From Octopus sinensis (Eukaryota), in the NCBI RefSeq assembly GCF_006345805.1, contig NC_043000.1:106392001-106456000 (forward strand): a stretch of 64,000 nucleotides of DNA. The letters are read 5' to 3'. Of the stretch, positions 22,499 through 22,654 are shown one piece after another. Numbering within the stretch: the stretch's first letter is position 1; every line of letters starts with the position of its first letter. A program made the position numbers and the translations under genes. The notes below the pieces were generated by a model. That model worked only from the letters and a program-made list of their open reading frames with translations, was not told the origin of the DNA and searched no databases.

Positions 22499-22654
22499 CC
22501 GGAGTAAACACATATGTGAAACAAGGTGGGAAAAGAGTACTCAAATACCAGGGGTAGAGTAAGATGCTTTATTTTTAACAAAACTGTCTGACGAACGGGA
22601 ACGTGAAACTCCGAGTAACAGGCTTTGTTGAATTTCTGCTGCTTTTAAATAAAG

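What the first reader, a model, noticed from the sequence alone, without database searches (positions are those of the whole stretch)
22584..22621. Intact 38-nt hammerhead ~2.3 kb upstream of the ERMP1 ATG, on the gene's strand
All core nucleotides (CUGACGA, GAAA, GUA) and stems I and II are perfect. Stem III (ACUC-C-GAGU) has a 1-nt loop that is sterically unlikely in a monomer but suits the dimeric folding known for PLE hammerheads. The antisense arm seen in the sibling at 27711 is deleted here, so the ribozyme would not be sequestered in dsRNA. It could cleave upstream read-through transcripts (inference).
Basis: partly seen in the sequence, partly recalled or inferred. Interest (0 to 1): 0.7.

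Follow-up and report, generated by a model that had tools for sequence, protein, structure and literature searches.

The report
Leftover Penelope retrotransposon hammerhead near ERMP1
This self-cutting-RNA motif is one of thousands of short leftover copies of a known kind of jumping gene in an octopus genome, and it likely has no role in controlling the neighbouring gene, although the copies together suggest that the jumping gene is usually copied from uncut RNA that likely starts just before the motif.

Summary
The motif is real, at the stated place, 2,328 nt upstream of a confirmed ERMP1 ATG. It is the pseudo-LTR hammerhead of a Hydra-type Penelope-like element (PLE), inside a 156-nt two-armed insertion (22499-22654) in a TA repeat. 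Full-length relatives with 721-766-aa open frames exist in this genome; over 4,000 exact core matches were counted.

The 'perfect' CUGACGA is a minority letter: 1,268 relatives read CCGACGA, 103 CUGACGA, and core-breaking changes at the same kind of CpG site number 69 and 76. The antisense arm is present (22499-22574) but short, as in near-identical young copies, so it was likely born short, not deleted. No competent dimer partner is nearby, and PLE hammerheads are weak or protein-dependent in the papers read. A role at ERMP1 is unlikely.

More interesting is the family. Of 100 young arms, 37 stop 1-17 nt before the core, ending at an initiator-like A; only 1-2 stop at the cut site. This suggests run-off cDNAs of uncut RNA. 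The scan noted the two fixed ends and this start pattern before, in other families.

The parts
22499..22654 (.). Whole two-armed (head-to-head) insertion of a Hydra-type Penelope-like element, flanked by (TA)n on both sides
   Evidence: 93-97% identical to the natural copy L044
22499..22574 (-). Antisense arm: the 71-nt 'tail' plus about 8 nt of body (template +137 back to +59); stops before the hammerhead
   Evidence: 93.7% to L044; same layout in young copies
22573..22654 (+). Sense arm: template -15 to +66, starting at the 5' pile-up point and ending at the first fixed 3' end
   Evidence: (L150)
22584..22621 (+). Type I hammerhead motif (core, 3-bp stem II with GNRA loop, palindromic stem III); predicted cut after 22617
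   Evidence: architecture as in PMC8557442 File S2
22574..22632 (+). Hammerhead with extended stem I (4 + 9 bp); the private T>C at 22623 removes one family pair
22589..22589 (+). Core position U4; C in most of this subfamily, T here likely by CpG decay
22533..22561 (-). Bulged hairpin 1 of the tail, 5 nt 3' of the first fixed end in the template (coordinates approximate)
27713..27935 (.). Older sibling insertion, full palindrome, both cores broken, inside ERMP1 intron 1
24949..25548 (+). ERMP1 first coding exon (neighbour, not part of the element); spliced to the next exon at 60212

Best explanation
The motif is the pseudo-LTR hammerhead of a Hydra-type Penelope-like retrotransposon, left in a 156-nt two-armed insertion in a TA repeat, and it is likely a passive leftover with no role at ERMP1. 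Shown: full-length relatives have the layout pLTR (hammerhead + tail) - ORF - 3' UTR - pLTR. Insertions consist of two head-to-head arms that start at two fixed template points (+66 and +137) and stop at variable 5' points. Inferred: the element's endonuclease nicks both strands of (TA)n, and its RT primes two cDNAs at the two internal start sites, each 5-7 nt before a bulged hairpin. One cDNA here fell off after about 80 nt. The other copied through the uncut hammerhead and ran off the RNA 5' end, about 16 nt before the core. The two were joined at a short A/T microhomology. The template likely carried the non-canonical C4 core, and CpG deamination later turned it into U4. The copy would cut, if at all, only as a dimer or with the element's protein.
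For: Parent: pLTR-ORF-pLTR unit of about 3,350 nt with inverted truncated copy (L119). 8 of 8 long-frame copies fetched have 721-766-aa stop-free frames with YRDD and RWK, 96-99% identical. The older subfamily is linked to the same ORF by walking upstream from the hammerhead (L088, 67% identical to the young ORF). Copy counts: 1,371 (this core group) and 2,780 (young group) exact matches. CpG control on the same 26-nt background: C4 1,268; C4>T 103; G5>A 69; G8>A 76. T4 occurs scattered in every older class. Arms: of 30 tail arms picked without regard to the hammerhead, 5 stop before it, 7 inside it, 12 at -8 to -26 and 6 run further; six of the short ones are 98-100% identical to the young reference. 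Of 20 tail arms with a resolved partner end, 19 partners end at +64 to +71 and 1 at the tail. Of the first 100 of 2,402 young arms, read by eye: 47 pass -20, 37 stop at -1 to -17, 12 at 0 to +27, 4 at +28 to +36. PMC11167929 (main text read): a PLE protein cuts and extends both strands at AT-rich DNA; the tail lies between two internal RT starts; the hammerhead needs the protein and is dispensable for insertion.
Against: T4 (103) exceeds G5>A (69; p=0.012) and G8>A (76; p=0.05). Three inverted pairs carry T4 on both arms, so some T4 copies were inherited from a T4 template; this copy could be one. A later microhomology deletion of the left arm cannot be excluded for this single copy (such deletions are described in PMC3846280, passages). 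The transcription start is inferred from arm ends and an initiator-like motif only; RT release at the foot of stem I, or joining at short palindromes near -14/-11, could also make the pile-up. The 100 arms include both arms of palindromes and one local duplicate, so they are not independent. Pfam gives no significant hit on the intact ORF, and no tree was built.
Confidence: 0.85

Rival explanations
1. Co-opted insulator: the copy would cleave read-through RNA arriving from upstream and so shield or tune ERMP1.
For: Canonical core, all stems formable, same strand as ERMP1, no antisense hammerhead arm.
Against: The core letter matches the neutral decay rate within a factor of 1.5. A private change weakens stem I. 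The only other copy in the 64-kb window has dead cores and folds into a -67.6 kcal/mol hairpin. About 80-120 such placements are expected by chance (assumed 20,000-30,000 genes). Single PLE hammerheads did not cut in vitro (PMC4209133).
Confidence: 0.03
2. Same origin, but the insertion was born as a full palindrome and later lost most of its left arm by microhomology-mediated deletion.
For: About 2-5 nt of A/T microhomology at the junction; palindromes are unstable (general knowledge); deletions described in PMC3846280.
Against: Short arms in nearly undiverged young copies (L184, L186, L194 100%; L201, L206, L199 98-99%). The sense arm keeps its start at the family's modal 5' point, which a deletion would have no reason to respect.
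Confidence: 0.08
3. The copy keeps the element's internal promoter and would be transcribed by itself towards ERMP1, as a small RNA that dimerises in trans with RNA of the thousands of relatives.
For: The sense arm starts at the inferred start site. D. virilis Penelope has an internal promoter within 46 nt of its start (PMC2377424, passages). Family sequence is present in RNA-like contigs.
Against: Those contigs are short, match many copies, and run into other flanks (loose ends); none is assignable to this copy. The initiator context upstream is replaced by the junction.
Confidence: 0.04

Closest known systems
Hydra clade of C-terminal-endonuclease Penelope-like elements (Craig et al. 2021, PMC8557442; section 11 and Files S1/S2 read)
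   Same: [quoted passage not shown] Hydra-2_aMil has the same 4-bp stem I, the same stem III arms and the same cleavage-site A.
   Different: A different family from the listed Hydra-1_oBim (other stems I-III). Unit about 3.35 kb against usually under 3 kb. Tail 71 nt against 30-40 nt given for PLEs. Stem II has only 2-3 bp. Older subfamilies carry C at core position 4, which none of the Hydra rows of File S2 shows. In the young subfamily the second C of CxCX5C is replaced.
Poseidon PLE of Anolis (PAc; Frangieh et al. 2024, PMC11167929; main text read)
   Same: Two internal RT start sites that bound the tail, both strands extended, AT-rich target, hammerhead in the pLTR, uncut RNA as the template.
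   Different: Other clade. In PAc the ORF starts inside the hammerhead; here the first ATG lies after the tail. That paper does not report a pile-up of 5' ends just before the hammerhead.
Minimal PLE hammerheads (Cervera and de la Pena 2014, PMC4209133; abstract, results, discussion read)
   Same: Type I, palindromic stem III, extra nucleotide after A9, mostly single motifs in truncated copies, pairs on opposite strands 100-700 bp apart.
   Different: Stem II is shorter and lacks G10.1-C11.1; stem I is extended.
Metazoan non-LTR retrozymes (PMC7229834, listing only; bioRxiv 10.64898/2026.07.22.740005, abstract to methods read)
   Same: Short, non-coding, type I hammerhead, pLTR-related.
   Different: Not a tandem array; it is a truncated piece of an autonomous element.

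Membership tests
Type I hammerhead ribozyme | Core CUGANGA, GAAA and NUH in order, closed by stem I | tested here: met
   22588-22594, 22605-22608, 22615-22617
Type I hammerhead ribozyme | Three helices can form | tested here: met
   monomer 2.8-4.1 kcal/mol above the minimum; dimer at or near the cofold minimum
Type I hammerhead ribozyme | Conserved G10.1-C11.1 pair (common, not universal) | tested here: not met
   A-U here, A.A in the young subfamily; many Hydra-clade motifs also deviate
Type I hammerhead ribozyme | Score above an Rfam family threshold | tested here: not met
   0 hits; minimal PLE motifs are not expected to reach it (inference)
Type I hammerhead ribozyme | Site-specific self-cleavage | not testable with these tools
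   needs in vitro assay
Penelope-like element (endonuclease-positive) | Single ORF with RT and C-terminal GIY-YIG endonuclease in full-length copies | tested here: met
   YRDD and GVVY-x14-YTG in 727 aa. A 43%-identical relative carries PF01541, recalled as GIY-YIG. Direct Pfam scan gave no significant hit.
Penelope-like element (endonuclease-positive) | Direct pLTRs with a hammerhead, inverted 5'-truncated copy, tail on one end | tested here: met
Hydra clade | RWK and DKT motifs | tested here: met
   RWK 8 of 8, DKT 6 of 8 long frames
Hydra clade | CxCX5C linker | tested here: inconclusive
   Present in the older copy L088; second C replaced in 8 of 8 young frames and in L126
Hydra clade | CCHH absent; CxxC and CxH beside the conserved E and N | tested here: met
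   (8 of 8)
Hydra clade | Insertion into (TA)n | tested here: met
   TA-like sequence follows 89 of 97 tail ends by the script's filter; of the other 8, four are also TA-flanked and four continue into the ORF
Hydra clade | Placement in the RT tree | not tested
   reference proteins were not available as tool sequences
Non-LTR retrozyme | Tandem units each with a hammerhead, no autonomous parent ORF | tested here: not met
   single two-armed insertion; parent ORF found

The most novel reading that the evidence does not exclude
The thousands of copies are a fossil read-out of PLE replication in vivo. The RNA starts at an initiator A 16-17 nt before the hammerhead core; the short copies are strong-stop cDNAs primed at the two hairpin-marked sites of the 5' pLTR; the template is almost never cut; and the lineage amplified through several subfamilies with a U4C core before returning to U4 in the currently intact subfamily. 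The hammerhead is then a structured 5' leader, probably a protein-gated switch between mRNA and template, not a device that releases the template.
Probability: 0.4. Interest if true: 0.55.

Novelty: new member of a known kind. Interest (0 to 1): 0.3.

Why it matters
The single site matters little: it is one decaying copy among thousands, and it shows how a textbook ribozyme core can arise by CpG decay and mislead. The family matters more. What hammerheads do in PLEs is stated to be unclear (PMC8557442), and one in vitro study found them dispensable for insertion (PMC11167929). Here a young family with intact frames and thousands of countable arms gives genomic support for uncut templates, predicts a start site to the base, and offers a natural U4/C4 pair for assay.

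Tried and rejected
Rfam at gathering thresholds: 0 hits. Folding z-scores of the motif: not significant (+1.2 for the 38-mer, -1.1 extended); the two tail hairpins singly are also not significant. Pfam and PDB on the ERMP1 first exon: nothing; the homologue search settled it. Pfam on ORF pieces and on the intact ORF: nothing significant. The broken ORF upstream of copy L036 was first taken for the parent and dropped: none of 19 other copies with the long 3' UTR continued into it. RNA: no holder on record as RNA was listed. In three RNA-like runs of three studies, ERMP1 contigs begin at 24368-24398 and the unique stretches 22281-22407 and 23805-24312 have no cover while the large genome-like run covers them. 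This blank is not used as evidence; the start also coincides with a GA repeat at which the genome-like contig breaks too. Depth over 22535-22661 comes from short contigs that fit many copies. Contigs cannot show ends, so cleavage in vivo was not testable. Idea that arms pile up at the cut site (+30), as proof of cleavage: rejected, 1-2 of 100. Idea of a splice acceptor at -11 as cause of the pile-up: rejected, because the AG is missing in most older copies. A DPE-like word at +28 from the inferred start fits the older subfamily at 6 of 8 letters but not the young one; given no weight. Literature searches: hammerhead + Penelope + octopus gave 1 work; hammerhead + U4C gave 1; no listed PLE paper held 'strong-stop' (10 of 15 listed); the 2026 octopus repeat paper has no 'ribozyme', 'hammerhead' or 'Hydra' (PMC13282606, passages). 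Repbase, Dfam and Lunse et al. 2017 (seen only as a citation) could not be checked, so the family and U4C PLE cores may already be on record there.

Full report
Observation. The 38 letters at 22584-22621 are as described. They form a type I hammerhead motif with a predicted cut after 22617. The gene is ERMP1: the 200-aa first exon from ATG 24949 matches octopus ERMP1 proteins at 96-100%, and a contig of an RNA-like run leaves the exon at 25548 for a sequence found at 60212. The motif is larger than stated, because stem I extends by 9 pairs. Stem II is 3 bp, A-U first. A monomer with a 3-bp stem III and 3-nt loop lies 2.8-4.1 kcal/mol above the free minimum. The domain-swapped dimer is at the cofold minimum for the 38-mer (-14.0) and 1.8 kcal/mol above it for the extended form. 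These are nearest-neighbour energies, not evidence of cutting.

What it belongs to. The stretch 22499-22654, between two TA runs, is a repeat: 2,764 first-look candidates in G000 and 1,371 exact matches to a 26-nt core pattern. Walking upstream through longer copies reached a decayed ORF with a GIY-YIG-like end about 1.5 kb before the hammerhead (L088). A protein search then found a young subfamily with long open frames. I fetched 15 stretches, 8 of them chosen for frames over 700 aa. All 8 show an RT frame with YRDD; the typical layout is pLTR - ORF - 3' UTR - pLTR, often with an inverted truncated copy upstream. The protein has the marks given for the Hydra clade in PMC8557442 (section 11): RWK, DKT, CxxC and CxH around the conserved E and N, no CCHH, TA targets. 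CxCX5C is intact only in the older copy. The paper's File S2 lists Hydra hammerheads with the same stem III; its Octopus family has a different motif, so this is another family. No tree was built.

Anatomy of this copy. Taking core C3 as 0, the left part (22574 to 22499, minus strand) copies template +59 to +137 and the right part (22573-22654) copies -15 to +66. So the antisense arm is there; it is short. Across the family, arms begin at +66 or +137, and a tail arm is nearly always paired with a +66 arm (19 of 20 resolved partners among 30 tail arms). This is the pattern explained in vitro for the Anolis element: both strands are cut and extended, and RT starts at two internal sites that bound the tail (PMC11167929). 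Each start here lies 5-7 nt before a hairpin with a UUU bulge, a feature I looked for after seeing earlier scan notes. Of 30 tail arms sampled without regard to the hammerhead, 12 lack a complete antisense hammerhead, six of them at 98-100% identity to the young reference. Birth truncation is therefore the simpler reading; a later deletion of this one arm is not excluded.

The 'perfect' core. On the same 26-nt background, 1,268 copies read CCGACGA and 103 read CUGACGA. The mirror change at the same CpG (G5>A) occurs 69 times and that at the next CpG (G8>A) 76 times; both break the conserved core. T4 is scattered over all older classes (that sample of about 200 copies is enriched for T4 by design). 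The modest excess of T4 (p=0.012 and 0.05) and three inverted pairs with T4 on both arms show that some were inherited from T4 templates. Most canonical cores in this group are thus likely decay products. U4C is reported to lower activity considerably in vitro while still allowing viroid infectivity (PMC3088659, passage). The youngest subfamily (1.3% deviation within class against 2.3-11% for the others; 2,780 exact matches) has U4 fixed, with a 2-bp stem II.

Where arms stop. In the first 100 of 2,402 young arms (read by eye from an 80-letter display; both arms of palindromes counted), 47 pass -20, 37 stop between -1 and -17, 12 inside the motif, 4 between +28 and +36. Only 1-2 stop at the cut site, so cut RNA is rarely the template, in line with PMC11167929. 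The pile-up has a sharp outer edge at -17 (5 arms at -16/-17 allowing for ambiguity, none at -18 to -20 in this list; two at -20 or -26). That position is the A of a pyrimidine-flanked, initiator-like word kept in both subfamilies. In the older group the mode is -15/-16, where the same A sits. D. virilis Penelope has an internal promoter in its pLTR (PMC2377424, passages). I infer that short copies are run-off cDNAs from the 5' pLTR. Release of RT at the foot of stem I, or joining at short palindromes at -14 and -11, are rival causes and probably contribute.

Function at ERMP1. Nothing singles this copy out. It has a private change that weakens stem I. Its only neighbour in the window is dead and hairpinned. 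With at least 4,296 arms, about 80-120 should lie within 2.5 kb of a gene start by chance if there are 20,000-30,000 genes (gene number assumed). A single metazoan PLE hammerhead showed no cutting, and dimers cut poorly (PMC4209133); the Anolis one needed its protein. The RNA data could neither show nor exclude transcription of the site.

What I saw of each paper. PMC4209133: abstract, results, discussion, part of methods. PMC11167929: main text and start of methods. PMC8557442: passages, section 11, parts of Files S1 and S2. bioRxiv 10.64898/2026.07.22.740005: first fifth (supplements closed). PMC3088659, PMC2377424, PMC3846280, PMC13282606, PMC6765202: passages. PMC7229834: listing. Initiator and DPE consensus, CpG deamination and the lethality of G5A and G8A are recalled knowledge.

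Verdict. An ordinary decaying copy of a new family of a known clade; the regulatory reading is unlikely (about 3%). The family-level patterns are modestly interesting and testable, and the scan has noted parts of them in other families.

Noticed in passing
G000 young subfamily, e.g. L119:2271-5773, L117, L120-L125: A very young, abundant Hydra-type PLE with intact 721-766-aa frames (96-99% identical) and 2,780 exact hammerhead cores; likely recently active. The second C of the CxCX5C linker is replaced in all eight.
   Followed up: partly
L119:2359-2387 and 2432-2455: Two similar hairpins with a UUU bulge, each 5-7 nt after one of the two fixed insertion ends; subfamily changes in hairpin 1 fall in its loop.
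   Followed up: partly
family-wide: Subfamily-level changes concentrate at unpaired hammerhead positions (centre of stem III, bulge of stem I, second letter of the GNRA loop), while core position 4 is C in all older classes and T in the youngest.
   Followed up: partly
L061:1400-2600 (minus strand): A broken ORF of what looks like a different PLE is joined to this family's 3' UTR; a similar 3' stretch seems to lie at window 27400-27555 just before the sibling.
   Followed up: no
window 22880-23670: A very high-copy element with nested long inverted repeats and TTAGGG-like words lies between the hammerhead and ERMP1 (depth about 2 million in the genome-like run).
   Followed up: no
window about 7570-10455: A long inverted duplication (same 23-mer on opposite strands at 7571 and 10431, mirrored low-complexity frames); a palindrome or an assembly artefact.
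   Followed up: no
window 25549-60211: ERMP1's first intron is about 34.7 kb and holds the sibling insertion and a LINE-like RT fragment (56838-57509, minus strand).
   Followed up: no
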